This document shows positions 9,631 through 44,717 of a stretch of DNA of 64,000 nt, piece by piece. The notes under the pieces are model-generated. The model was given only the letters and a program-made list of their open reading frames with translations. It was not told the DNA's origin and searched no databases. Within the stretch, counting starts at the first letter, position 1, and the number at the start of each line of letters is the position of its first letter. The DNA is from a virus, in IMG/VR virus record IMGVR_UViG_3300045988_130366. One strand, 5' to 3'. The position numbers were made by a program, and so were the translations under genes.

Positions 9631-11139
9631 ATGTCTGAGAACTATGGTGTAAAAGACATAAAAACTTTGGAAGGTATCGAAGCCATCAGGCTTAGACCTG
9701 GTATGTATATAGGCTCAATCGGACCAGATGGAGTTAGACATATTACTCTTGAAATTATTTCTAACGTAATTGATGAGTATTTAAACGGATATTGTACAAA
9801 GTGTAATATTGAGGTAACAGAAGATGACATGGTAAAAGTTTCTGATGATGGACGTGGTGTTCCTTTTGGAAAGGCGGCAGATGGTTCAGAAACTCTTGAA
9901 AATATTTTTACAAAGCTTCATACAGGAGCTAAATTTGATAGTTCTGGTAAAACTGGATATAATACATCTGGTGGTATGAATGGTGTTGGTGCAAAAGCAA
10001 CGAATGCATTGTCTGATAAATTTATTGTCACTTCCAAAAGAGATGGTAAAATTGCAACAATGACATTTGAAAAAGGTGAAAGAAAAGATTTTAAAGTTGA
10101 AAAGTATGCAGGAAAAGATACTGGAACAACTATTACTTTTCATCCCGATATTGAGATTTTTAAAGAAGGAATCTCACTTGATTATGAAGAATTAAAAAGA
10201 CAGATTCAGGAATTAGCATATCTTTCTCCTGGATTAACTTTTACATTAAAATATAAAGACAAAGCTGAAGATGTAATTGTTTCTCAGAATGGTATTCTGG
10301 ATTATATTCAAGATTTGAATAAAAAGAAAAATACTATTACATCTGTTTTTTATGCCGAGGCTTCCGAAGATAGAATTGGCGTAAAATTAGCAATGCTGTA
10401 TAACGATAGTTATACTGATACTTATAAATTATATACAAACTCAATTCCAAATACAGCTGGAACTCATCTTACTGGATTTAGAACTGCATTAACTTCTGCA
10501 ATTAATAATTATGCAAGAGAGAATAAACTTCTTAAAGAGAAAGATTCTAATATTGTAGGAGATGAGTTAAAAGAAGGTCTTGTATTAGTTCTTTCTTTTG
10601 TGATGCCAGACCCAGTCTTTTCAGGTCAGACAAAAGAGAAACTTGATTCAAGTGAAGGACGTACAATGGTCCAAAAGCTGGTGTCAAAAGAGATTGCGAT
10701 TTGGCTTGAAAGCCATCCGAATGATGCAAAAGCAATTATTAATAAGGCTTTATTGGCACGTGCCGCAAGAGAAAAAGCTAAAAAAGCTAAAGAGACAGTT
10801 CGTAAGGCGGATGTGAAGAAAAGAGCAGTAATGCCCGGTACATTAGCAGATGCAAGTTCTCGAAATAGAGCTTCTTGTGAAGTGTTTATTGTAGAGGGAA
10901 AGTCTGCTGCCGGTTCAACAAAAGAAGCCAGAGATAGAGCTACCCAGGCTGTGTTCCCCGTACGAGGAAAGATTCTTAACGTATTGAAGGCAGACCTTGC
11001 GAAGGCGTTAAAGAACGCAGAAATTGATGGTATGATTACTGCTTTTGGACTTGAAATTAAGGACGGAAAAGTAATTGTAAATAAAGATAAATTGCGTTAT
11101 GGTAAAATTGTTATTACAGCCGATGCGGATGTAGATGGT
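9631..11139 (+). CDS. gyrB: DNA gyrase subunit B, exon 1 (ATPase, transducer and TOPRIM up to …ITADADVDG)
   Basis: GyrB N-terminus (LEGIEAIRLRPGMYIGS), GHKL ATPase motifs, TOPRIM EGKSA(A)GS…, ends at DADVDG codon GGT (exon ends in U). Confidence 0.85.
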
Positions 11140-12229
11140 CAAATGTGGGCCAGTGAAAAACTTTTCGCTTAATCATCAAAGCGGGTATAAAATTTTTTGG
11201 TTAGAGATATTATATGTGATATGTACATTCATCATATAATATTGAGAAGAAAAGATTTTATGCTAACGGGGAAGGGTTATTAACTTAATCCCGTGGGAAA
11301 CTTATATTAATCCTTTCTTCTTAATATAATAATTAAGGAGAAATAAAAGTGATAGGTATATATAAAATTACAAACCTTGTAAATGGTAAAACTTATATTG
11401 GACAAAGTAATAATATAGAAAGAAGATTTAAAGAACATCAACAAAAAGGAGAATTGAGTAGAATTCCAGTTGATATTGCAATTAAAAAATATGGAAAAGA
11501 TATGTTTTCTTATGATATAGTTGAAGAATGTAAGTTAGAAGAATTAAATGAAAAAGAAACATATTGGATAAAAAAATATCATACAAAAGAAGATGGATAT
11601 AATTGCAATGACGGTGGGAGTTTTCAATCTTCTGGAGAAAATAATGGTAGAAGTAAATTAACCGAAAAAGATGTTATTTTAATTAGAAAAGCTTATAACA
11701 ATCATAAGAAACAATCTGAAATATATGAATTATTTTCTGATAAAATTTCTTTTGGACATTTCCAAAATGTTTGGCAAGGAAAGGTTTGGAGTAATGTAAT
11801 GCCAGAAGTTTTTACAGAAGAAAATAAAAATTATTATATCTATAAAAATAGTCAAGGACAAAATGGAAAAAATTCTAATCTTACAGATGAAGAAGTTATA
11901 AAAATAAGAAAAAGATATGTTAAAGAATCTGCAAGAGAGATTTATGAAGACTATAAGGATATAATGTCTTATCAAACTTTACAGCAATTATTATGGGGAA
12001 GACATTATTCTCATTTACCAATTTACAAGAAAAAAGAGAAAAAATGGATTAATATTTGAACCTGTATCGACTATCCCCCAGGCCTTTTGGGCGGGGGAGT
12101 AGGGCTGCTATTGATACGCAGCCAGGTTTTAGGAAACGAAGCCTGTTAAAAGCCGAAATGGTTTCCTTGATAAAATAAAATTTATCAAGTAAAAGATAGT
12201 CAGTGCCAATAGTAATATTGGAATAAATG
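11140..12229 (+). mobile_element. group I intron (gyrB intron 1) carrying GIY-YIG homing endonuclease ORF
   Basis: Interrupts DVDG|SHIR of GyrB; 3' core GTATCGACTATCC…CTATTGATACG…AGATAGTCAGTGCCAAT…AAATG ending in omega-G immediately before exon 2. Confidence 0.8.
11349..12059 (+). CDS. GIY-YIG homing endonuclease (intron-encoded, I-TevI-like)
   Basis: GIYKITNLVNGKTYIGQS…ERRFKEH motif; GTG start with AGGAG RBS; two NUMOD-like repeats. Confidence 0.85.
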   Translation: MIGIYKITNLVNGKTYIGQSNNIERRFKEHQQKGELSRIPVDIAIKKYGKDMFSYDIVEECKLEELNEKETYWIKKYHTKEDGYNCNDGGSFQSSGENNGRSKLTEKDVILIRKAYNNHKKQSEIYELFSDKISFGHFQNVWQGKVWSNVMPEVFTEENKNYYIYKNSQGQNGKNSNLTDEEVIKIRKRYVKESAREIYEDYKDIMSYQTLQQLLWGRHYSHLPIYKKKEKKWINI

Positions 12230-12407
12230 TCACATATTAGAGCGTTATTTTTAACCTTTATTTGGAAATTTGCTCCGCAATTAATTGAAGATGGATATAT
12301 TTATGCGGCAGTTCCTCCACTTTATAAAGTTACACAGGGAACTAAAATTACTTATCTAAAAGATGATGCGGCTCTTGAGGAATTTAGAAAGACAGCTAAA
12401 AAGTCTT
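12230..12407 (+). CDS. gyrB: DNA gyrase subunit B, exon 2 (SHIRALFLTF…GYIYAAVPPLYKV…TAKKS)
   Basis: Canonical GyrB PPLYK region; ORF 12227-12433 of the six-frame track = this exon plus read-through into intron 2. Confidence 0.75.
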
Positions 12408-13464
12408 TTGAGCTGGGTCGTATGAAAGGGTAAGAGATAGTCTGGCCCTTATCCACTTTTCCTCTAATCAGAGGGGTTATTATCTTAGATAATAGCTAAC
12501 GAGGCAGTCTTCAAAATATTTTGGGTATTTCAGGAAATCCTGAAATGGATAAAACTTAAATATTCTTGGAGATAATCTCGTGGGAAAAAACTATAAGAGA
12601 TTATCTTACATTTTATTATGTGAGGTATTCAATATGATAGGAATTTATAAGATAACAAACAAAATTAATGGAGATGCTTATATTGGACAAAGCACTCAAA
12701 TAGAAGAAAGATTTATAGAACATAAAAATCCTACAAATTGGGCAAGAGAATCTAATAAAAGTCTTTATAAAGCATTTATTCAATTTGGATTACAAAATTT
12801 TGATTTTTCCGTTTTAGAAGAATGCAAAAAAGAAGAATTAAATGATAAAGAACAATATTGGATTGGATATTATAGTACATATCCTAATCAATATAATATG
12901 ACTCCAGGAGGACAATTTAATGCAGGTGAATGTCATCCAAGTCATAAATTAACTGAAAAGGATGTGATTGATATTAGAACGAGATATAAAAATCACGAAA
13001 GAAAAAAAGACGTTTATTTATTATATGCTCATTTAATTGGGGAATCTGGCTTTCATAAAATTTGGAATGGTTCAACATGGAAAACAATAATGCCAGAAGT
13101 TTATACAAAAGAAAATAAAGATTTTCATGCTCATAATACTTCAAATGTAGGTTCTAAAAATGGAAGGTCTAAATTAACAGAAGAAGATGTTAAAAATATT
13201 CGCTTAAGAAAGAAAAATGGAGAGCAGTTATCTTCCGTTTATAATGATTATTCTGACAAATTAACTTATAAATCTTTTGAAAATGTTTGGTCTTATAGAA
13301 ACTGGAAAAAAATTATAGTTTAAGCCTGTATCGACTATTCCCTTTGTCGGGAAGTAGAAATACTATTGATACGTATTTCAAAAAGGTGGACATGATGAAG
13401 GCAGTTAATACGTTAGCCGGAGTGAAGAAATAGTCAGTACCAATGGTGACATTGGAGTAATACG
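12408..13464 (+). mobile_element. group I intron (gyrB intron 2) carrying GIY-YIG homing endonuclease ORF
   Basis: Splits …KKS|LGEMDP… (GyrB YKGLGEM motif restored on splicing); 3' core GCCTGTATCGACTATTCC…CTATTGATACG…AATAGTCAGTACCAATGG…AATACG omega-G. Confidence 0.7.
12580..13323 (+). CDS. GIY-YIG homing endonuclease (intron-encoded)
   Basis: GIYKITNKINGDAYIGQS…ERFIEHK motif. Confidence 0.85.
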   Translation: MGKNYKRLSYILLCEVFNMIGIYKITNKINGDAYIGQSTQIEERFIEHKNPTNWARESNKSLYKAFIQFGLQNFDFSVLEECKKEELNDKEQYWIGYYSTYPNQYNMTPGGQFNAGECHPSHKLTEKDVIDIRTRYKNHERKKDVYLLYAHLIGESGFHKIWNGSTWKTIMPEVYTKENKDFHAHNTSNVGSKNGRSKLTEEDVKNIRLRKKNGEQLSSVYNDYSDKLTYKSFENVWSYRNWKKIIV

Positions 13465-13652
13465 TAGGCGAGATGGACCCGTCCGAAATGGCTGAAACAG
13501 TTATGAATCCAGAAACCAGAACTCTTAAACAAATATGTATGGAAGATGCAGAAGAAGCTGCTAAAACTTTCATGGGATTGATGGGTGAGTCGGTTGTTTA
13601 TAGAAAGAAATTTATCGAAGAGAATGCATGGAGAGCAAATATTGACGTATAA
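13465..13652 (+). CDS. gyrB: DNA gyrase subunit B, exon 3 (C-terminal LGEMDPSEMAETVMNPETRTL…FIEENAWRANIDV*)
   Basis: Unmistakable GyrB C-terminus; total spliced length 1875 nt = 624 aa. Confidence 0.75.
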
Positions 13653-34356: not shown

Positions 34357-36881
34357 ATGAGCAAAAAGTGGTTTAATTGTCATAACCATACAGAGTATTC
34401 AAACTTACGTCTTTTGGATTCAACCAATCACCCAAAAGATTTAATCAATAAAGCAATCGAATTAGGACTTAGTGGTATCTGTATAACTGACCATGAGGCC
34501 CTTTGTGCGCACGTTGAAATAAATAAAATTGCAACAGAGTTAAGAGAAACAAATCCTGATTTTGTGATTGGATTAGGAAATGAGATTTATTTAACTGATA
34601 CAAGAAATCATGGTCAGAAATATTATCATTTTATTTTGATTGCTAAAGATGCAATCGGTCATAAAGCGTTAAGAGAGTTAAGTTCTACAGCTTGGTATTA
34701 TTCATATATGGATAGAGGTATGGAAAGAGTTCCAACTTTAAAAGATGAATTAACTGAGATTGTAAGACATTATAAAGGTCATTTAATTGCAACAAGTGCA
34801 TGTATTGGTGGAGAATTATCTTCATGGTCTTTATTATATGCAGAAGCATTAAAGGTAAATGACCAAAAGATGGCAATGGAGTTTCAGAAAAAGATTCAAG
34901 ATTTTATGAATTTTGTTCTTGATTTATTTGGAGATGATTTTTATATTGAATGTGCTCCATCTAATAAAGAAGATCAAATGACTGTAAATTCTCAGTTGTT
35001 TAAAATTGCAACTGCATATAATGTTAAAATGGTTGTTGGAACTGACTCTCATTATTTAACAAAAGAAGATAGAATGGTTCATAAAGCATATCTTAATTCA
35101 AAAGGTGGAGAGCGTGAAGTTGATGACTTTTATGAATTTGCCAGACTTATGGATAGCGATGAAGTGGAAGAATTATTATCTCCATGTTTTCCAGATGGAT
35201 ATGTAGATGTAATTTTTGAAAACACTTTAGATTTACAAAATAAAATTGAATATTATAGTCTTTTTCATAAGCAGGATATTCCATCTGTAGAAGTTAAAGA
35301 TTATCCAAAAGTAAGAGGATTTAAACAATATCCACATTTATCTGCAATGTTAATGGATGATGATATTCAGAATCGTTATTGGGTAAATGAATGTTTAAAT
35401 CAGCTTGAAAAACTTGAAAAAATTAATGATAGACGTTATCTTGATGAGCTTGAAGAAGAAGCACGAGTTAAAAGTATCATTAGTGAAAAACTTGAAACAA
35501 ATATGTTTCGTTATCCAAATACACTTCAGCATTATATTGATATGATTTGGGATTGCGGTTCAATGGTAGGTGCTGGTCGTGGTTCCAGTTGTGCCGCGCT
35601 TAATCATTACCTTATGGGAATTACTCAGTTGGATCCTATTGAATGGGATTTACCTTTCTTCCGTTATCTTAATGAAGAGAGAATTGAGCTTGGTGATATT
35701 GATATTGACATATGCCCGTCTAAACGTCCGGAAATTCTTCGTAAAATTAAAGAAGAGCGTGGAAAGATGTTCTATGATAATATCATGGAATGGGCAAAGA
35801 AAAATCTTGGATGTACTCTTGTAGCAACATTCGGTACAGAAGGAACCAAATCTGCAATTCAGACAGCTTGTAGAGGTTATAGAAGTGAGGATTATCCAGA
35901 AGGAATTGATGTTGATGAAGCTCAGTATATGAGTTCATTAATTCCAGAGGAAAGGGGTTTTTTATGGACAATTAAAGAAGTTGTTTATGGAAATCCAGAA
36001 AAAGGTCGTAAACCTGTTAAGACATTTGTAAATGAAGTAAATAAATATCCAGGTTTATTGGATATTATTGTAGCTATTGAAGGTCTTGTAAACCATAGAG
36101 GCTCTCATGCATCTGGTGTAATTTTATTTGGAGATGACCCATTTGAGCATAGTGCTTTTATGAAAACTCCAAAAGGTGAGATTACTACTCAGTTTGACTT
36201 ACATGATGCAGAGTATATGGGATTAACAAAATATGATTTTCTTGTAACTGAGGTTCAGGATAAGTTGGTTCAAACTATTCAATTACTCCAAGAGGATAAT
36301 GAAATTGAGCCAGAATTAAGTTTGCGGGAAGTCTATGATAAATATTTTCATCCTAATGTTTTACCTTTAAATGATCAAAAGATTTGGGATGCATTGGGTA
36401 AAGTATCTGTTATTAATACTTTCCAGTTTGATTCTCAGGTTGGTGCGCAGGTTGCAAAGAAATTAAAACCTCAGAATGTATTGGAAATGGCGGATGCGAA
36501 TGGTCTAATGAGACTTATGGGCGAAGATGGAGAAGAACGCCCAATGGATAAATATTATCGTTTTAAACAAAACATTCAGTTATGGTATGATGAAATGACA
36601 AAATTTGGTCTTACCAAAGAAGAGCAGAAAACTCTTGAACCTTACTTTAAGAGTTCTTATGGAGTTCCGCCTTCACAGGAACAGTTAATGAGAATGTTGA
36701 TGGATGATAAGATTTGTCACTTCAGTCTTGGAGAAGCAAATGCGGCTCGTAAGATTGTTGGTAAAAAGCAGATGAATAAAATTCCAGCTTTGCATGAAAA
36801 GGTATTGGCACAGGCGGCAAGTGAGAAGCTTGGCCAGTATGTATGGAAATGTGGAGTTGGCCCGCAGATGGGTTATTCATT
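34357..36881 (+). CDS. dnaE: DNA polymerase III alpha (DnaE-type), exon 1 (PHP, palm, fingers up to …QMGYSF)
   Basis: PHP motif CHNHTEYS…ITDHEAL, DnaE palm/fingers similarity, ends in conserved GYxF of the GYGFNKSH region; exact 5' splice site +/- few nt. Confidence 0.75.
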
Positions 36882-38115
36882 TAGCGTTGTGTAAATGGCG
36901 CTTACACACTTAACCACTTATCGGTGGGGTAATTAAAACATTAATATATTTGGCAAATATAGTTTTAATTGCTAACGAGGGTAAAATCTCGTGACAAATT
37001 TCTTTAATAGAGGTATAGTGTTTTTCATTTATACATGAGAACAATAGCCATGTATAAAGGAGAATATTTATGTATTATATTTATAAATTCACAAATAAAA
37101 CAAATGGTAAGATTTATATTGGGCAAACTAATAATATTCAAAAACGAAAAAATGGTCATAGAAGTGATTCTTTTAATGAAAAAAGTTCTGGATATAATTT
37201 ACCATTTCATTCTGCAATAAGAAAATATGGTTGGGATAATTTTAATTTTGATATTCTTGAAGAAATATCAGATGGAGAGTCTCAAGATTATATTGATGAA
37301 AGAGAAATTTTTTTCATTCAATATTATCATTCTTTAAAAGACGAAAATGGATATAATATTTCTATTGGGGGTCAAGGATATAAAAGACAACCCTTAACTT
37401 ATGAAGAAAGATTGAATCTATCTAAGTTATTTAAAAAAGAAGAGATTATTGATATTCAAAATCGTTTAATGAATGATGAAGAATATGATGATATTGAAAA
37501 AATTTATTATCCTAAATTAAAACGAACATTTTTAGTCAATATAAATACTGGAACAAATTATTTTAATGAAAAATTTGATTATCCTTTAAAGAAAAATTCC
37601 AGAAGTCGTTTTTCTCAAAAAGAAATTCGAGAAATAAAAGATAGAATTAAAAGTGGAGAGAAATATAAATCCATTCAAGAAGATTTTAATATTAAATCCG
37701 CAGGATTTTTATCTATGATAAATACTGGAAAATATTTTTATAGTAATCAAGATACATATCCACTTTGTGATAAAGGAAGTAATAAAGCTAAAAATGAAGT
37801 TTGGGTTCAAGGTATTATAAAAGATATCTTAGAAACAGAATTATCATTAAAAGATATTTCTAAAAAATGGAATAAAAGTTACGCTACAGTTAAAAATATT
37901 AACTCTGGTCGTTCTCATAAAAAAGAAAAATATAAATACCCTCTTAGAGATAATAAATAAATCTATTAAAAGAAAAATGTTGTATCGACTATCCTGGGTT
38001 AGACCGGGAGTACTGGAACTATTGATACGTTCTGGGAAATAGTGTGCGGATAAGGGGTATGCCAAAACCTCACTACAACATCCGTAAAAAATAGTCAGTA
38101 ATTTAAAAAATTATG
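36882..38115 (+). mobile_element. group I intron in dnaE carrying GIY-YIG homing endonuclease ORF
   Basis: Shared core TGTATCGACTATCC…CTATTGATACG…AATAGTCAGTAATTT…TTATG omega-G; exon 2 resumes (F)IHALAYSFIGVQTLY matching DnaE [13 protein letters not shown]. Confidence 0.7.
37070..37960 (+). CDS. GIY-YIG homing endonuclease (intron-encoded)
   Basis: YIYKFTNKTNGKIYIGQTNNIQKRKNGH motif. Confidence 0.8.
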   Translation: MYYIYKFTNKTNGKIYIGQTNNIQKRKNGHRSDSFNEKSSGYNLPFHSAIRKYGWDNFNFDILEEISDGESQDYIDEREIFFIQYYHSLKDENGYNISIGGQGYKRQPLTYEERLNLSKLFKKEEIIDIQNRLMNDEEYDDIEKIYYPKLKRTFLVNINTGTNYFNEKFDYPLKKNSRSRFSQKEIREIKDRIKSGEKYKSIQEDFNIKSAGFLSMINTGKYFYSNQDTYPLCDKGSNKAKNEVWVQGIIKDILETELSLKDISKKWNKSYATVKNINSGRSHKKEKYKYPLRDNK

Positions 38116-39511
38116 TATACACGCTTTAGCTTATAGTTTCATTGGTGTTCAAACATTATATATTGCAACAAATTGGAATCCTATTTATTGGGATTGTGCA
38201 TGTTTAATTGTAAACAGTGGTTCACTTGAAGATAATAGTGAGTTAGAGATTGATGAGGATAATGAATCTGAATCTATTTCCGTGAAGAAAACAGCTTCAA
38301 CTGATTATGGAAAAATCGCAAAGGCGATGGGTGAAATTATATCTGCGGGAATTAAAATGAGCCTTGTTGATATAAATAATTCAGATTATGGATTTAAACC
38401 TGATGCTAAAAATAATCAGATTCTTTATGGAATGAAAGGTTTATTGAATGTCAGTGATGCGGTAATTGATGATATTATCAAAAATAGACCTTATATTTCA
38501 CCTAAAGACTTTTTATTAAAAGTGCGTCCAAATAAACAGGCAATGATTTCACTTATTAAAGGTGGAGCATTTGATACAATGATTGACCGCAAGATTTGTA
38601 TGGGTTGGTATATTTGGGAAACTTGTGATAAGAAGAAACGAATTACTTTACAAAACATGGGAGGTTTGATTAAATATAATCTTCTTCCAGAAAAAAATGA
38701 ACAACAGATTATGGCGAGAAGAGTTTATGAATTTAATCGTTATCTAAAATCTGTTTGTAAGATTAAAGGTGATACAACTAATTATCATATAGATGATAGA
38801 GCAATGAATTTTTTGATTGAAATGGAACATGATGATTTATTAGAGGGTTATTCTTTAAATATGAAAGCATGGGACAAAGTATATCAGAAATGGATGGATG
38901 TATTCAGAGAGTGGATTGCGGAAGAAAAAGAACAGATTCTTCAGAACTTAAATGAAAAAATCTTTAAGGATGATTGGGATAAATATGCTCAAGGAACTTT
39001 ATCAGCTTGGGAAATGCAGGCATTATGTTTCTATTACCATGAACATGAATTATCTCATGTTGATACTCAAAGATATGGTTTTGTTGATTTTGATAAGCTG
39101 CCGCAAGAACCTATTGTAGAAAGAACATTTACAAAAGGTGCAAAGCAAATTAATATATTCAAATTGAATAAAATTTGCGGAACTTGTATTGCTAAAAATA
39201 AAACTAAAAGTACAGTAACTATATTGACAACTTCTGGAGTAGTTAATGTTAAATTTAGAAAAGAATATTTCTCATTATTTGATAAGCAGATTTCTGAAAA
39301 ACAAGAAGATGGAACTAAAAAAGTTCGAGAAAAATCTTGGTTCAATCGAGGAAATATGATTATAGTAATGGGCATTAGGTCAGGGGATGATTTCATTTCT
39401 AAGAAATATGCTTCTTCTAATGGACATCAATTATATAAGATTGATAAAATTAATGAAGATGGAAGTTTGGAAATTAGAAGTGATAGATACCAAGGAGAAG
39501 ATGTTTTTTAA
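38116..39511 (+). CDS. dnaE: DNA polymerase III alpha (DnaE-type), exon 2 (C-terminal: HhH, beta-binding region, OB fold)
   Basis: …IHALAYSFIGVQTLYIA… then DINNSDYGFKP / GMKGL (cf. DnaE DINRSD…GLGAIKG). Confidence 0.7.
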
Positions 39512-40520: not shown

Positions 40521-41816
40521 ATGGAGGGATACAATATGTTAGAAGTTCAAAAACGAAATGGTGATATTGTCCCATTTGATAAAGAAAAAATTATTGATGC
40601 AGTAAACAGAGCAATGATTGAAGTAGATAAAATCCTTTATGAGACAGATACTTCAGAAGATATTGCTACTGAAATTGAAGAAATGGCTAAACGCTCTAAG
40701 ACAACTATTTCTGTAGAAACTATTCAAGATTGTGTAGAAGATTTATTAATGCAATCTGAAAGAAGAGATGTTGCAAGAGCGTATATTCGTTATAGATATA
40801 AACAAGAAGCAAAGAGAGAGCATGAGGCAGTTTTTGTTAAAACTTATAGTGAAAAATTGGAAGCCCGCAATGTTCAAAATCAAAATGCTAATGTAGATGA
40901 ACACTCTTTTGGCGGACGTATGGGTGAAGCAAGCTCAGTTATGACAAAGAAATATGCTTTAGATTATATTGTATCTAAAATGTCAAGAGATAATCATTTA
41001 AACAATGAAATTTATATTCACGATTTAGATAGTTATGCTGTTGGAATGCATAATTGTTTGTCATTACCTATAGATGATTTACTTAGAAATGGTTTTAATA
41101 CTCGTCAAACTGATGTTCGTCCTGCTCAATCTGTTAATACAGCTTTTCAGCTTTTGGCAGTATTATTTCAGTTACAATCATTACAGCAGTTTGGAGGAGT
41201 ATCTGCTACTCACTTAGATTGGAGCATGGTTCCTTATGTTCGTAGAAGTTTTTATAAGCATTTCTTAGATGGCATTAAATATTGTCAAAAAGGTCAGATG
41301 CTTGGATTAGCTGGAACTTATGAAGATTTTGATTTATCTAATGCAAAAGAGGCGTGGATTAAAGCTGATGCTTCTATTAATGATGATGTATTTGTTAGAA
41401 ATGAAGCAGCTTATCAATATGCCGTAGATATGACAATAAAAGAAACTTATCAAGCTGTAGAAGGAATGTATCATAATCTTAATACATTACAATCTCGAAG
41501 TGGAAACCAGTTACCTTTTACTTCTATTAACTATGGTACATGTACTTTACCAGAAGGAAGATTAGTAACAGAGGCTTTATTAAATGTATCTATTAAAGGT
41601 ATTGGAAAGCTTCATAAAACTTCTATTTTTCCTTGTGGAATTTTCCAGTGTATGAAAGGAGTCAATCGTGAAGAAGGAGACCCAAATTACGATTTATTTA
41701 AACTCGCATTACGTTCAACCGCCACAAGACTGTACCCAAATTATGCTAATGTCGACTGGTCTGGAAACGCAGGATATGACATCAACGACCCTCGTACCTA
41801 CTTCTCTACAATGGGT
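40521..41816 (+). CDS. nrdD: anaerobic ribonucleoside-triphosphate reductase NrdD, exon 1 (ATP-cone … YFSTMG)
   Basis: ATP-cone VQKRNGDIVPFD, IYIHDLD…HNC, ends at …TMG just before conserved radical-loop Cys (cf. E. coli SPMG|CRSF). Confidence 0.8.
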
Positions 41817-42706
41817 AAGCGAAAACTCAGCCCATTTAAAATCTTTTGAACTGTGCTAACAGGTGTTTATATATTCTAATATATAGGCTAACGGTTAGGT
41901 CTTAATGACTTTGCAGTTTGTTGTTAAGATGAGACCGTGCTAAGATTCATTATAATATTCACACATAGAAGGAGGCTATATGTGGATATATAAAATAACA
42001 AATATTCAAAATAATAAAGTTTATATTGGTCAAACAATACGACCAATAAATCAAAGATTTCATCGGCATTTGAATGATGCTATCAATAATATTTTAGATA
42101 CACACTTTGCCAGAGCAATTAGAAAATATGGTAAAGATAATTTTATCATAGAAGAAATTGATACCGCTCAAACTCAAGATGAATTAAACCAAAAAGAACA
42201 ATATTGGATTAGATTTTATAATTCAGTTGAAGAAGGATATAATGAAACAGATGCAATATCTAAGTGCGGGGGTAATACATATCGTTCTAAAACTGAAGAA
42301 GAGATGGAAATTATCAAAGAAAAAATTCGACAAACAAAAATAGGTACTAAAAACCCTATGGCACGAAAAATTAAACGAACAAACATTATTACTAATGAAG
42401 TAGATATATTTAATACTGTTATTAGTTGTGCTAAAGCTTGTGGAATTAAAAATGGTAAAACATCTATCTCAACAAGATTAAATGGACAAATAAAAAGTCC
42501 TTATAAAAATACTTGGATTTTTGAATATTATAATGAATAAAGTGTATCGACTATCCCTGATGAATGTATGGGAGTAGGGACGGAGATAAGCACCGTCGTT
42601 GTTTTAGGAAACGAAGCAACTGAGAACCGAAGCGGAAGACAACTCTATTTACTTTTAAATAGAATGATAATATAGTCAGTGCTGATGGTGACATCAGATA
42701 AACACG
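41817..42706 (+). mobile_element. group I intron (nrdD intron 1) with GIY-YIG homing endonuclease ORF
   Basis: Core GTGTATCGACTATCC…; 3' end …ATATAGTCAGTGCTGATGG…AACACG omega-G; splicing joins MG|CRTANGYDINGFGQLKDGRGN (cf. MGCRSFLGVWENENGEQIHDGRNN). Confidence 0.75.
41980..42540 (+). CDS. GIY-YIG homing endonuclease (intron-encoded)
   Basis: MWIYKITNIQNNKVYIGQT…RFHRH motif. Confidence 0.8.
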   Translation: MWIYKITNIQNNKVYIGQTIRPINQRFHRHLNDAINNILDTHFARAIRKYGKDNFIIEEIDTAQTQDELNQKEQYWIRFYNSVEEGYNETDAISKCGGNTYRSKTEEEMEIIKEKIRQTKIGTKNPMARKIKRTNIITNEVDIFNTVISCAKACGIKNGKTSISTRLNGQIKSPYKNTWIFEYYNE

Positions 42707-43225
42707 TGCAGAACTGCCAATGGGTACGATATTAACGGTTTCGGTCAGTTAAAAGATGGACGTGGAAATATTTGTCCTGTAACAATTATTTTACCTACAT
42801 TAGCAATGGAAGCTAAACAGAACTTTATGTCTCAATATGCTTTAACTGGCGAAGATGCAAAAGAAGCTTTTGCAGTTGAATATTTCATGACTCTTTTAGA
42901 TGAAAAAATTCATCAGGCAAAAGATATGTTGATTGAACGCTTCGATTGGATTTGTTCTCAGGATGCTTCTGCCGCAGTCTTTATGTATGAGAATGGCACA
43001 ATGAAGGGGTATATTCCAGAGGAAGGAATAAGAAGCGCATTAAAACATGGAACTTTAGCGGTAGGTCAGTTAGGACTCGCTGAGACTCTTCAAATTCTTA
43101 TTGGCACAGACCATACGACTTCAGAAGGAATGAAACTGGCTAAAAGAATTGAACAGTTATTTAAAGATAGATGTGCGGAATTTAAAGAAGAATATAAGCT
43201 TAATTTTGGTGTATATTATACTCCT
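42707..43225 (+). CDS. nrdD: NrdD exon 2 (CRTANGYDING…ILPTLAMEAK…VYYTP)
   Basis: Matches E. coli NrdD DGRNNLGVISLNLPRIALEAK block; ends at …YYTP (cf. LYSTPSENLC). Confidence 0.75.
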
Positions 43226-44198
43226 AAACTTTTCGGATTGGGAGTCGCACAAGTGATTGTGTGAAAAAACAACTCTGTTAAACGGGCAATCGTAATAAGA
43301 TGATAAGAGAGACTAAACCTGTAATAAGGCAAGTTAATCCCGTAGGGTAAATTCATTGGACACAAGTTTTCAGTCGTGTATAATAAAAATTCATATAATA
43401 TAGAAGGAGAGTGAATTTTTTTATGGCACGTAGAAAAATGACAGATAAATTAATTAAAAGAAGTCAAATTAATGAAGAAATACGATTAATTAATGGAAGT
43501 GAAACTGATTATATTTCTTCAAAAGGTAATATTTATAAAGATTATGGAAATGATTTATTTTATCCCAAAGCAAATTTTATAAATAAAAATAATGGATATT
43601 TATATTCCAGTATAACTTATCCAGAAGGACAAAGACAAAGAAGAGTGCATATTTTAGTTGCAGAAGCTTTTTTGCCTAATCCAAATAATTATACAGTAGT
43701 AATGCATAAAGATAATAATAAAGCAAACCCTGAAGTATCTAATCTTGAATGGGGGACTAATTCAAAAAATACTAAAGATGCTTATAAAGATGGTCTTGCT
43801 AAAAATGATAAAAGCTGGGATGATAATCAATCAATTCATATTTGTAGTTTTGATTTACAGGGCAACCTATTAAAGATGTATGGCTCTGTAGGAGAAGCTT
43901 CAAGAGAATTACACGTTACAAAAACAACAATATTAAATCAATGTAATCACAATGTAAAAACAAAACCTCGTTGTGGATATTGGTTTAGATACTTGACTGA
44001 ATACAAAACCAATGGATTTGTTCTCTAACGACTATCGAAAACATAGTTATAAAAGAAATATTTATAATGAAGAAGTGAGTAGAGTAGGATATTATATCCG
44101 AAAGACAGAGCTCTTATTATTTGGTAATAGGATAATAAGATGATAATATAGTCTAATCCCCTTTTTTATGAAATATCGGGAAACCGAGGGTTCGAATG
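43226..44198 (+). mobile_element. group I intron (nrdD intron 2) with HNH-type homing endonuclease ORF
   Basis: 3' end …AATATAGTCTAATCC…GGGTTCGAATG omega-G; joins YYTP|AENLCYK. Confidence 0.7.
43411..44028 (+). CDS. HNH-family homing endonuclease (I-HmuI-like, with AP2-like DNA-binding C-terminus)
   Basis: …VHILVAEAFLPNPNNYTVVMHKDNNKANPEVSNLEWGT… HNH_3-type motif; RBS GAAGGAG. Confidence 0.65.
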   Translation: MNFFMARRKMTDKLIKRSQINEEIRLINGSETDYISSKGNIYKDYGNDLFYPKANFINKNNGYLYSSITYPEGQRQRRVHILVAEAFLPNPNNYTVVMHKDNNKANPEVSNLEWGTNSKNTKDAYKDGLAKNDKSWDDNQSIHICSFDLQGNLLKMYGSVGEASRELHVTKTTILNQCNHNVKTKPRCGYWFRYLTEYKTNGFVL

Positions 44199-44717
44199 GC
44201 CGAAAACCTTTGCTATAAAGCTTTAAAGAATTTTAAAGCAAAATATGGAGTAATTGAAAATGTAAGTGATAAAGAGTTTTTTACTAATTCAATTCATGTT
44301 CCAGTTTGGAAAGAAATGTCTCCATTTGAGAAGATTGATATTGAGTCTCAATTAACCGGTTATTCATCTGCGGGATGTATTACTTATGTTGAATTAGATT
44401 CTGGTATTAAAAACAATCTTGAAGCATTAGAGCAAATTGTAAATTATGCTATGGATAAAGACATTCCATATTTTGCAGTTAATGTACCAAACGATACATG
44501 TCTTGAGTGCGGATACACAGATGAATTTAATGATAGATGTCCTATCTGCGGAAGCACTCATATTCAACAGCTTAGAAGAGTTACTGGATATTTAACAGGA
44601 AATTATAAAACTGCTTTTAACCTTGGTAAGCAAGATGAAGTTGAGCATCGTGTTAAACATGGAGGAAAAAGAGAATGGGCGCAGATAAAACCTGGCACGA
44701 CAAAGAAGAATACTTAA
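44199..44717 (+). CDS. nrdD: NrdD exon 3 (…ENLCYK…Zn ribbon CLECGY…CPICG…glycyl-radical RRVTGYLTG…)
   Basis: C-terminal Zn ribbon and glycyl radical motif RVxGY; spliced total 2334 nt = 777 aa. Confidence 0.8.
   Translation, partial: AENLCYKALKNFKAKYGVIENVSDKEFFTNSIHVPVWKEMSPFEKIDIESQLTGYSSAGCITYVELDSGIKNNLEALEQIVNYAMDKDIPYFAVNVPNDTCLECGYTDEFNDRCPICGSTHIQQLRRVTGYLTGNYKTAFNLGKQDEVEHRVKHGGKREWAQIKPGTTKKNT

What the first reader, a model, noticed from the sequence alone, without database searches (positions are those of the whole stretch)
34357..39511. dnaE (Pol III alpha) interrupted by a group I intron with GIY-YIG HEG
The PHP/palm/fingers ORF ends at …QMGYSF(SVV*). After a 1.2-kb insert containing a GIY-YIG ORF and the shared intron core, a frame reopens at 38116. 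It begins IHALAYSFIGVQTLY… and continues into the DINNSDYGF / GMKGL block of DnaE.

This corresponds to the conserved [21 protein letters not shown] region. The spliced product is ~1306 aa. The exact 5' splice site is uncertain by a few nucleotides, because the NKSH tetrapeptide is not fully recovered.
Basis: partly seen in the sequence, partly recalled or inferred. Interest (0 to 1): 0.6.

Follow-up and report, generated by a model that had tools for sequence, protein, structure and literature searches.

The report
Self-splicing intron inside phage DNA polymerase
The DNA polymerase III alpha gene of this SPbeta-like phage is interrupted by a 1,228-base mobile group I intron that carries its own homing endonuclease, a well-known kind of selfish element whose RNA here has an unusually stripped-down core.

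Summary

**Gene layout**
- Exon 1 of dnaE is 34357-36887.
- The insert is 36888-38115 (1,228 nt).
- Exon 2 is 38116-39511.
- Joining the exons gives a 1,308-aa protein with the junction GYSFSV|IHALAYSF.

**Evidence for a mobile insert.** Metagenomic relatives that are 96-97% identical in DNA lack exactly these 1,228 nt. They encode the same 1,308-aa protein.

**Evidence for a group I intron**
- P1 has a U·G pair at the 5' splice site, supported by one compensatory change in a relative.
- The last intron base is G.
- P3, P4, P6/P6a, P7, P7.1, P7.2, P8 and P9 are present.
- 19 base pairs covary among 8 same-site variants.
- A covariance model built without T4 sequences finds the proven T4 td intron core (E about 1e-4).

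**Endonuclease.** A 296-aa GIY-YIG enzyme resembling I-TevI sits in the P6a loop.

**Rival reading.** Exon 2 has no start codon for 55 conserved codons, so two separately translated halves are unlikely.

**Verdict.** This is a new member of a known kind.

**Extras**
- The ribozyme has no P5.
- Two hairpins lie between P3 and P4.
- Rfam does not detect it.
- Its P4 motif occurs in 64 uncultured viral contigs, 52 of them in this same dnaE motif.

The parts
34357..36887 (+). dnaE (yorL-like Pol III alpha) exon 1: 843 codons plus 2 nt (GT of the split Val codon)
   Evidence: ORF and Pfam domains PHP, DNA_pol3_alpha and finger. The end point is fixed by intron-less alleles L001 and L002.
36888..38115 (+). 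Group I intron, 1,228 nt. The first base is U36888 and the last is G38115 (omega G).
   Evidence: These bases are precisely absent from 96-97% identical alleles. Structure and covariation. Link to T4 td.
36883..36902 (+). P1: exon AGCGU (36883-36887) pairs with the internal guide sequence GCGCU (36898-36902). The U36887·G36898 wobble lies at the splice site.
   Evidence: Paired in 8 of 8 variants. L011 has the compensatory pair AGCAU/GUGCU.
36905..36910 (+). P3 5' strand CACACU. It pairs with AGUGUG at 38041-38046.
   Evidence: Invariant in the same-site group. Across the wider family, 13 of 14 distinct hexamer pairs are fully complementary, against 9% for mismatched partners.
36914..36927 (+). 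Hairpin 1 (CCACU-UAUC-GGUGG), lying between the P3 5' strand and P4
   Evidence: Compensatory variants CCGUU/AACGG and CCGAU/AUCGG.
36931..36970 (+). Hairpin 2 (AAUUAAAAC...GUUUUAAUU). Its loop UUGGCA (36950-36955) is complementary to the L8a loop at 38060-38065.
   Evidence: 4 pairs have double changes. Loop-loop complementarity is kept in variants; L012 has UGGUAA with UUACCA.
36975..36992 (+). P4 hairpin ACGAGG-GUAAAA-UCUCGU, preceded by J3/4 UAA. There is no P5.
   Evidence: Aligns with td ACGGGG...CCCGU, with the whole P5 region replaced by a 6-8 nt A-rich loop. The motif is invariant and present in 64 IMG/VR loci.
36994..37011 (+). P6 (ACAA) and P6a 5' strands. They pair with 37962-37983 and close the loop that holds the endonuclease ORF.
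   Evidence: Found in the minimum-energy fold of the ORF-deleted construct. L012 keeps P6a with a different sequence.
37056..37062 (+). Shine-Dalgarno AAAGGAG of the endonuclease gene, 7 nt before the ATG. It is partly inside the hairpin 37028-37058.
   Evidence: Read directly from the sequence.
37070..37960 (+). GIY-YIG homing endonuclease gene (296 aa plus stop), I-TevI-like
   Evidence: Pfam GIY-YIG 3.2e-10. PHROG 7168 1.8e-42. Best solved structure is the I-TevI catalytic domain 1MK0, with the YIG, Arg, Glu and Asn motifs aligned.
37962..37983 (+). P6a and P6 3' strands (UCUAUUAAAAGAAA ... UUGU)
37987..38096 (+). Catalytic 3' domain:
- P7 GACUAU (37987-37992) with AUAGUC (38091-38096)
- P7.1 37993-38008
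- P7.2 38013-38035
- P3' 38041-38046
- P8 38047-38084, with inner helix 38054-38071
   Evidence: The P7 sequence is identical to T4 td and invariant in 57 family members. P7.1, P7.2 and P8 all covary. Model R2 hits the td core at 23.7 bits, E 1e-4.
38099..38115 (+). P9 hairpin (UAAUU...AAUUA), then UG ending in the terminal G38115
   Evidence: Compensatory A-U to U-A change in L012.
38116..39511 (+). dnaE exon 2: T completes the Val codon, followed by 464 codons and the stop. The first 6 nt, UAUACA, can pair with intron nt 1-6 UGUGUA (P10).
   Evidence: Translation and HhH_6 domain. P10 is paired in 6 of 8 variants at every position. No in-frame start codon before 38282.

Best explanation
The insert is a mobile group I intron. 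Its catalytic core matches that of the phage T4 td intron: the same P7 sequence, plus the extra hairpins P7.1 and P7.2 that mark the IA2 subclass. It is lodged in the finger-domain motif GYSFSV|IH of the phage's Pol III alpha gene.

**Splicing (inferred).**
1. The gene is transcribed through the intron.
2. The RNA folds into P1-P10.
3. A free guanosine attacks after U36887, which sits in a U·G pair with the internal guide sequence.
4. The freed exon 1 then attacks after the terminal G38115.
5. The exons are joined, and the mRNA encodes one 1,308-aa polymerase.

**Homing (inferred).** The P6a loop carries a GIY-YIG endonuclease related to I-TevI. By analogy with that enzyme, it cuts intron-less dnaE alleles near the insertion site during mixed infection. 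Repair from the intron-bearing copy then copies the intron in, together with a short tract of flanking exon.

**Shown here**
- the exact boundaries of the insert;
- the existence of empty alleles;
- the RNA helices and their covariation;
- the relationship to the T4 td core;
- the endonuclease family;
- the lack of an alternative start codon for exon 2;
- disagreement between intron and exon phylogenies.

**Inferred, not shown**
- splicing itself;
- endonuclease activity and its cleavage site.
For: **1. Precise empty alleles.**
- P0001 and P0002 are 1,308 aa, 99% and 98% identical to the spliced product, and carry GYSFSVIHALAYSF.
- Their DNA (L001, L002) reads TTTAGTGT|TATTCATGC where the window reads TTTAGCGT[1,228 nt]TATACACGC.
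- Exon DNA identity is 96-97%.
- Six silent changes cluster at positions -3 to +12.

**2. Splice-site rules are met.**
- The U·G pair in P1 and the terminal G are both present.
- P1 shows a compensatory G-C to A-U change in L011.

**3. Secondary structure.**
- The minimum-energy fold of the ORF-deleted RNA gives P4, P6/P6a, P7, P7.1, P7.2, P8 and P9.
- Across 8 same-site variants, 94 pairs are 97.6% paired and 19 have double changes. None of 500 shuffles reached this, and slid controls gave 37-49%.
- Across 57 distinct family 3' halves, 95.4% are paired, against 64.7% when shuffled.
- P3 covaries: 13 of 14 hexamer types are fully complementary.

**4. Link to a proven ribozyme.** Model R2, built with no T4 sequence, hits the td core L004:1392-1491 in register (23.7 bits, E 1e-4). 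P7 is the same sequence, GACUAU/AUAGUC.

**5. Endonuclease.** Pfam, PHROG and the I-TevI catalytic domain all match.

**6. Exon 2 cannot be translated alone.** Its first 55 conserved codons have no start codon, yet they stay conserved in intron-bearing lineages.

**7. Relatives without an endonuclease gene.** ORF-less members of the same RNA family interrupt dnaE in other contigs, for example the roughly 200-nt insert in L021. There only RNA removal can restore the gene.

**8. Mobility.** L011 exons are 61-62% identical to the window but its intron is 89% identical. L010 shows the reverse pattern.
Against: - No transcript data or splicing assay is available.
- Rfam RF00028 gives no hit even at E up to 10. 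The T4 td control reaches 40 bits, which is still below the gathering score of 50.
- The ribozyme lacks P5, a helix present in the characterised group I introns I know of, so autonomous catalysis is not guaranteed.
- P3, P4, P6 and P7 do not vary within the same-site group. Their support comes from more distant family members and from homology to td.
- The E-value of the td hit comes from a shortened calibration and a 2.9-kb search.
Confidence: 0.9

Rival explanations
1. The gene is split by a free-standing homing endonuclease gene and there is no RNA splicing. The two halves of Pol III alpha would be translated separately and assemble as a heterodimer, as in Aeromonas phage Aeh1 nrdA split by mobE.
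For: - An endonuclease ORF lies between two polymerase ORFs.
- Gene callers report the 845-aa N-terminal piece as a protein (P0116, P0118, P0119).
- Such fragmented genes are documented in the literature (PMC3045599, listed).
Against: - The exon 2 frame has no ATG, GTG or TTG from the stop at 38099 to GTG 38282, and no ribosome-binding site there. The conserved HALAYSFIGVQTLY... segment would be lost.
- 337 nt of non-coding insert fold into covarying group I helices.
- ORF-less relatives interrupt the same motif.
- The insert boundaries obey the U·G and terminal G rules.
Confidence: 0.03
2. The insert is a decaying intron whose ribozyme has lost P5 and no longer splices efficiently. In this reading dnaE is a pseudogene, or is rescued only by host factors or by the host polymerase.
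For: - P5 is absent; P4 is capped by GUAAAA.
- Rfam gives no hit.
- Whether yorL-type polymerases are essential to SPbeta-like phages has not been established (PMC8270828).
Against: - The P5-less P4 motif is identical in 64 viral contigs from many samples. It sits in at least 4 different dnaE sites and in other genes.
- The other helices in these contigs are maintained by compensatory changes.
- Exons flanking the intron keep open frames and conserved residues.
- Decay would not preserve all this.
Confidence: 0.05
3. The insert is an intein, a group II intron or an assembly chimera.
For: dnaE genes are classic intein hosts (PMC4760082, PMC2677866, listed).
Against: - The insert is not in frame: a stop codon follows 2 codons after the junction, and the endonuclease gene has its own ribosome-binding site and frame.
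- No reverse transcriptase or domain V was found; Rfam group II models gave nothing.
- The same insert is found in 11 independent contigs.
Confidence: 0.01

Closest known systems
Phage T4 td group I intron (subclass IA2) with I-TevI
   Same: - Same P7 sequence (GACUAU/AUAGUC).
- Same J3/4-P4 motif (UAA-ACGNGG...CNCGUG).
- P7.1 and P7.2 lie between P7 and P3'.
- The GIY-YIG endonuclease ORF sits in the P6a loop.
- It interrupts a conserved site in a DNA-metabolism gene.
- Model R2 finds its core.
   Different: - td has a P5 helix and a P2 hairpin placed before P3.
- The window intron has no P5 and has two hairpins after the P3 5' strand.
- td reaches 40 bits on Rfam RF00028; this intron gives no hit.
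- The host gene is thymidylate synthase rather than the polymerase.
Introns in the Pol III alpha gene of Enterococcus phage EF1/EF5 (MF001358)
   Same: - Same host gene and the same GYSF motif.
- Same RNA family (R1 hit at L003:4261-4413).
- Its GIY-YIG ORF is the closest endonuclease homologue among isolate phages (40% identity).
   Different: - Its insertion site is 13 nt upstream, after the first base of the Tyr codon.
- Its P4-P5 region resembles td and includes a P5.
- The GenBank record annotates the pieces as separate proteins. Only the other insert, which carries an HNH endonuclease, is labelled 'Phage intron'.
Group I introns of SPbeta and Bacillus prophage ribonucleotide reductase genes, and IA1/IA2 introns of Firmicute phages (Twort, SPO1, B. 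cereus prophages)
   Same: - Same phage lineage: YorF, YorH and YorL synteny.
- Same habit of several endonuclease-bearing group I introns in replication and nucleotide-metabolism genes (PMC2504315 and PMC8270828).
   Different: - None of the papers I could read reports an intron in yorL/dnaE.
- I could not compare sequences directly, apart from the negative megablast and blastn searches against isolate phages.
Genes split by free-standing homing endonucleases (Aeh1 nrdA/mobE)
   Same: An endonuclease gene lies between two halves of an essential gene.
   Different: In those cases each half has its own start codon and there is no ribozyme. Here there is a ribozyme and no second start codon.

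Membership tests
Group I intron | 5' splice site follows a U that forms a U·G wobble with an internal guide sequence (P1) | tested here: met
   U36887·G36898 lies within AGCGU/GCGCU. It is paired in 8 of 8 variants, with one compensatory change in L011.
Group I intron | Intron ends in G (omega G), and the exon 2 start can pair next to the guide sequence (P10) | tested here: met
   G38115 is the last base, as defined by the empty alleles. UAUACA pairs with UGUGUA at 6 of 6 positions in the window, with one mismatch in some variants.
Group I intron | Core helices P3, P4, P6, P7 and P8 in the canonical pseudoknotted arrangement | tested here: met
   All were identified. P7.1, P7.2, P8, P6a and P9 covary within the same-site group. 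P3 covaries across the family. The P7 and P4 motifs are shared with td.
Group I intron | P5 helix with J4/5 and J5/4 flanking it | tested here: not met
   Only 6-8 nt (GUAAAA) lie between the two P4 strands. The A-rich loop may stand in for J4/5, but that is inference only.
Group I intron | Match to Rfam RF00028 at the gathering score | tested here: not met
   No hit at E up to 10. The control is informative: the proven T4 td intron also fails the gathering score (40.3 against 50 bits).
Group I intron | Guanosine-dependent self-splicing | not testable with these tools
   Requires in-vitro transcription with GTP and Mg2+, or RT-PCR.
Subclass IA2 (td/Twort type) | P7.1 and P7.2 hairpins between P7 and P3' | tested here: met
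   P7.1 is 37993-38008 and P7.2 is 38013-38035. Both covary.
Subclass IA2 (td/Twort type) | P2 hairpin located between P1 and the P3 5' strand | tested here: not met
   The P3 5' strand follows the guide sequence after 2 nt. Two hairpins then lie between P3 and J3/4. T4 td and nrdB have the canonical order.
GIY-YIG homing endonuclease (I-TevI type) | N-terminal GIY-YIG catalytic domain with conserved Tyr, Tyr, Arg, Glu and Asn | tested here: met
   Pfam 40.6 bits, above the 22.6 cut-off. The alignment to I-TevI 1MK0 keeps IY..YIG..KR..ERE..NGYN.
GIY-YIG homing endonuclease (I-TevI type) | Encoded in a peripheral loop of an intron that is present in some alleles and absent from others | tested here: met
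   The ORF lies in the P6a loop. Empty alleles exist. Intron and exon identities disagree.
GIY-YIG homing endonuclease (I-TevI type) | Site-specific cleavage of the intron-less allele | not testable with these tools
   Requires a cleavage assay on the L001/L002 target sequence.
Family C DNA polymerase, Pol III alpha (DnaE/YorL) | PHP, palm/NTPase, fingers and HhH domains in one chain | tested here: met
   The Pfam domains are spread over the two exons. The spliced protein aligns with Thermus and E. coli alpha subunits across the junction. Closest isolate homologue is SPbeta YorL, about 42% identity.

The most novel reading that the evidence does not exclude
This intron may belong to an undescribed, abundant subfamily of phage group I ribozymes with three departures from the td/Twort pattern:
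- P5 is dispensed with entirely; P4 is capped by a conserved GUAAAA loop.
- The P2-type hairpins sit between the P3 5' strand and J3/4.
- A covarying loop-loop contact joins the second of those hairpins to P8.

The subfamily would have specialised on the catalytic GYxF..H motif of phage Pol III alpha genes, using at least four different insertion sites. If these RNAs splice on their own, they would be natural minimal P4-P6 domains. They would also be a blind spot of the Rfam model.
Probability: 0.35. Interest if true: 0.55.

Novelty: new member of a known kind. Interest (0 to 1): 0.35.

Why it matters
**For annotation.**
- The polymerase of this phage and its relatives is one 1,308-aa protein. 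It is not an 845-aa and a 409-aa fragment.
- Gene callers and Rfam both miss this.
- At least five endonuclease-bearing inserts in this window break genes in the same way: two in a gyrB-like gene, one in dnaE and two in nrdD.

**For biology.**
- It adds Pol III alpha (yorL) to the replication genes colonised by homing introns in SPbeta-like phages.
- One 21-nt stretch encoding a conserved finger motif is a hot spot used at several positions by related introns.

**For RNA structure.** A widespread, conserved group I core without P5 would be a useful natural test of what the P4-P6 domain is needed for.

Tried and rejected
- **Rfam.** Searches at the gathering score and at E up to 10 on the window, on the intron, on its 3' half, on introns A and B, and on a compact ORF-less relative gave no group I hit. 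The one exception was a weak P4-P6 match in L011. I treat these results as uninformative because T4 td also fails the gathering score.
- **Isolate phage genomes.** Megablast of the whole locus and blastn of the 3' core and of the P4 motif gave no match, or only short and chance matches.
- **Model R1.** Built from the same-site variants only, it was too narrow to reach td (7.7 bits). It was replaced by R2.
- **Hairpin GUGUAA/UUACAC (36889-36909).** The minimum-energy fold prefers it. I considered it as P1 and rejected that: it has no U·G at a usable splice site and it competes with both the covarying P1 and P3. It may be an alternative fold.
- **P3 in the canonical place.** I looked for a P3 5' strand directly before J3/4 and found no complementary 3' partner. 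The bases there belong to a hairpin that covaries internally.
- **GUAUC/GAUAC and UGUUGUA/UACAACA.** Both were considered as P7 or P3 and rejected in favour of GACUAU/AUAGUC, which is shared with td.
- **First P3 test.** A test based on maximum complementarity over a 70-nt region was too permissive; 47% of mismatched partners also scored 6 of 6. It was replaced by a fixed-register test.
- **Literature.** Searches for introns in phage dnaE, and for hairpins between P3 and P4, found nothing relevant. Lazarevic 2001 was not available.

Full report
**What is in the sequence.**
- ORF 34357..36894 (845 aa) carries the PHP, Pol III alpha and finger domains and ends ...PQMGYSFSVV*.
- ORF 37070..37960 (296 aa) is a GIY-YIG protein.
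- The frame that continues the polymerase carries the HhH_6 domain. It reads IHALAYSFIGVQTLY... from 38117 to the stop at 39511.
- In that frame there is a stop at 38099. No ATG, GTG or TTG follows until GTG 38282, and that GTG has no Shine-Dalgarno sequence.
- The window has 31.6% G+C. Its gene order (YorF, YorH, DnaB, RecJ, helicase, YorL-type polymerase, guanylate kinase, NrdD) is that of an SPbeta-like phage. The closest isolate polymerases are those of Enterococcus phages and Bacillus SPbeta YorL, at 42-44% identity.

**Exact boundaries.**
- Joining T36887 to T38116 gives a 3,927-nt reading frame and a 1,308-aa protein with the junction GYSFSV|IHALAYSF.
- A protein search found uninterrupted proteins of exactly 1,308 aa, 99% and 98% identical (P0001, a cluster of 669 sequences, and P0002). 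Both contain GYSFSVIHALAYSF. The search also found 845-aa truncated copies from intron-bearing contigs.
- The DNA of the two uninterrupted alleles (L001, L002) is syntenic and 96-97% identical in the exons. It reads TTTAGTGT|TATTCATGCACTTGC where the window reads TTTAGCGT[1,228 nt]TATACACGCTTTAGC.
- Because the intron and exon 2 both begin with T, DNA comparison alone allows 36888-38115 or 36889-38116. Only the first ends in G and leaves a U·G pair at the 5' site.
- Six silent differences cluster at positions -3 to +12 around the site. The changes at -3 and +3 improve the P1 and P10 pairings. The pattern is also what a short co-conversion tract, or target-site immunity, would leave.
- Thermus Pol III alpha aligns without a gap across the junction: NYGFNKSHAAAYSLLSYQT against MGYSFSVIHALAYSFIGVQT. 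The 'missing NKSH' is therefore a lineage difference, not a splice-site error.

**The RNA.** Rfam finds nothing here, so I worked the structure out directly.
- Short sequence blocks of the 3' part recur after three other endonuclease ORFs in the window, near 12063, 13327 and 42543.
- Those blocks match the T4 td intron core. I recalled the td sequence and then verified it at 100 of 100 bases against T4.
- With the ORF replaced by a tetraloop, the minimum-energy fold gives the following:
  - two 5' hairpins;
  - a P4 hairpin;
  - P6 and P6a, which close the ORF-bearing loop;
  - P7 (GACUAU/AUAGUC), P7.1, P7.2 and P8 with an inner helix;
  - P9.
- P1 (AGCGU/GCGCU), P3 (CACACU/AGUGUG) and P10 are pseudoknotted or compete with other pairings. 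I added these by hand.

**Covariation within the same-site group.**
- Relatives of the endonuclease in IMG/VR gave 11 contigs. All carry the intron at the same dnaE site, and they comprise 8 distinct RNA variants.
- On the ORF-deleted alignment, 94 pairs in 15 helices are 97.6% paired and 19 pairs changed on both sides. None of 500 shuffles reached this, and sliding the partners gave 37-49% pairing.
- P1 has one compensatory change in L011: exon G to A together with guide sequence C to U. The U·G pair is invariant.
- P3, P4, P6 and P7 do not vary in this group.

**Link to a proven ribozyme.**
- A covariance model of the 3' half (R1) found introns A and B in the window, the second dnaE insert of Enterococcus phage EF1, and two further introns in the dnaE of L011.
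- The rebuilt model R2 used 13 sequences, none from T4. It found the T4 td catalytic core in the correct register at 23.7 bits and E about 1e-4 in a filter-free search of 2.9 kb. It also found the first nrdD insert in the window at E 0.013.
- The E-values are rough because the calibration was shortened.

**The endonuclease.**
- It matches a full-length PHROG 'homing endonuclease' family (1.8e-42).
- Its best solved relative is the I-TevI catalytic domain, with the catalytic motifs aligned.
- It has its own AAAGGAG 7 nt before the ATG, and its stop codon abuts the P6a 3' strand.

**Mobility.**
- Between the window and L011, the exons are 61-62% identical but the intron is 89% identical.
- Between the window and L010, the exons are 95-96% identical but the intron is again 89% identical.
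- Together with the empty alleles, this shows that the element moves independently of its host gene.

**Rivals.**
- *A gene split by a free-standing endonuclease.* This fails on three counts: exon 2 has no start codon, the non-coding parts of the insert covary as RNA, and ORF-less relatives interrupt the same motif (for example about 200 nt in L021).
- *A decayed, non-splicing intron.* This is unlikely, because the unusual core is conserved across many contigs while the other helices are kept by compensatory changes.
- *Intein, group II intron or assembly artefact.* All three are excluded by the sequence itself.

**Unusual features found along the way.**
- *No P5.* The two P4 strands are separated only by GUAAAA, where td has about 20 nt including P5.
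- *Distribution of the P5-less motif.* The 22-nt motif CTAACGAGGGTAAAATCTCGTG occurs in 64 IMG/VR loci. Of these, 52 interrupt dnaE in the (G/S)Y(G/S/A)F motif, at no fewer than four positions, each with its own guide sequence. The other 12 lie in other genes. No true match exists in 50,697 isolate phage genomes.
- *Strand order.* The P3 5' strand follows the guide sequence directly. Two hairpins then precede J3/4, whereas T4 td and nrdB have P2 before P3.
- *P3 covariation.* Across the family, 13 of 14 distinct P3 hexamer pairs are fully complementary, against 9% for mismatched partners.
- *Family-wide 3' half.* It is 95.4% paired, against 64.7% when shuffled, and P7 is invariant in 57 sequences.
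- *Loop-loop contact.* The loop of the second hairpin is complementary to the loop of the inner P8 helix and covaries with it: UUGGCA with UGCCAA in the window, and UGGUAA with UUACCA in L012.

I could not check these features against the full catalogue of group I subclasses. I therefore report them as a possible new variant rather than a claim.

**Verdict.** This is a group I intron carrying a GIY-YIG homing endonuclease inside the phage Pol III alpha gene. Its boundaries are now fixed to the base, and its relationship to the T4 td class is established. It is a new member of a well-known kind, with a moderately interesting reduced ribozyme architecture.

Noticed in passing
window 9631-13650: A gyrB-like (type IIA topoisomerase B) gene is interrupted twice. 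The two introns belong to the same RNA family, and each carries a GIY-YIG ORF (11349..12059 and 12634..13323). Their 3' cores lie at 12059-12219 and 13323-13450.
   Followed up: partly
window 40521-44717: The anaerobic ribonucleotide reductase gene nrdD is broken by two inserts. One carries a GIY-YIG ORF (41980..42540; 3' core 42539-42695, R2 E 0.013). The other carries an HNH ORF (43411..44028) and has a different-looking core. In relatives, L002 has an intact 772-aa NrdD and L001 has only the HNH insert.
   Followed up: partly
window 36975-36992; loci L016-L079: The P4 hairpin without P5 (CTAACGAGGGTAAAATCTCGTG) occurs in 64 uncultured viral contigs and in none of 50,697 isolate phage genomes. 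Of the 64, 52 sit in the dnaE (G/S)Y(G/S/A)F motif, at no fewer than four different insertion positions.
   Followed up: partly
window 36905-36970 with 38041-38046: The strand order is P1, P3 5' strand, two hairpins, J3/4, P4. In T4 td and nrdB it is P1, P2, P3. P3 is supported by 13 of 14 covarying hexamer types across the family.
   Followed up: partly
window 36950-36955 with 38060-38065: There is a possible kissing-loop contact between the loop of the second 5' hairpin (UUGGCA) and the loop of the inner P8 helix (UGCCAA). It is kept with different bases in L012 (UGGUAA with UUACCA).
   Followed up: partly
window 38020-38028, 37982-37986, 36919-36922: The invariant P7.2 loop UAUUGAUAC is complementary both to J6/7 GUAUC and to the conserved UAUC loop of the first 5' hairpin. 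This may be a tertiary contact; it was not tested.
   Followed up: no
window 36889-36909: An alternative hairpin GUGUAA/UUACAC overlaps the intron start, the guide sequence and the P3 5' strand. It would compete with P1 and P3. It is retained, as GUGUGA/UUACAC, in L012.
   Followed up: no
window 37028-37058: A 10-bp hairpin (UUUAUACAUG...CAUGUAUAAA) overlaps the first bases of the endonuclease Shine-Dalgarno sequence. This recalls the translational occlusion of I-TevI. It is not conserved in L012.
   Followed up: no
L011:1-1110 and L003:1500-4440: Other phages carry several introns in the same polymerase gene. L011 has three, one of them an ORF-poor intron of about 390 nt at about 717-1103. 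Enterococcus phage EF1 has two, one with an HNH and one with a GIY-YIG endonuclease; the GIY-YIG one lies 13 nt upstream of the window's site.
   Followed up: partly
window 36884-38128 compared with L001, L002 and L010: Six silent substitutions cluster within 15 nt of the insertion site in intron-bearing alleles. L010 carries the intron but keeps an exon 2 start like that of the empty alleles. This suggests short and variable co-conversion tracts.
   Followed up: partly
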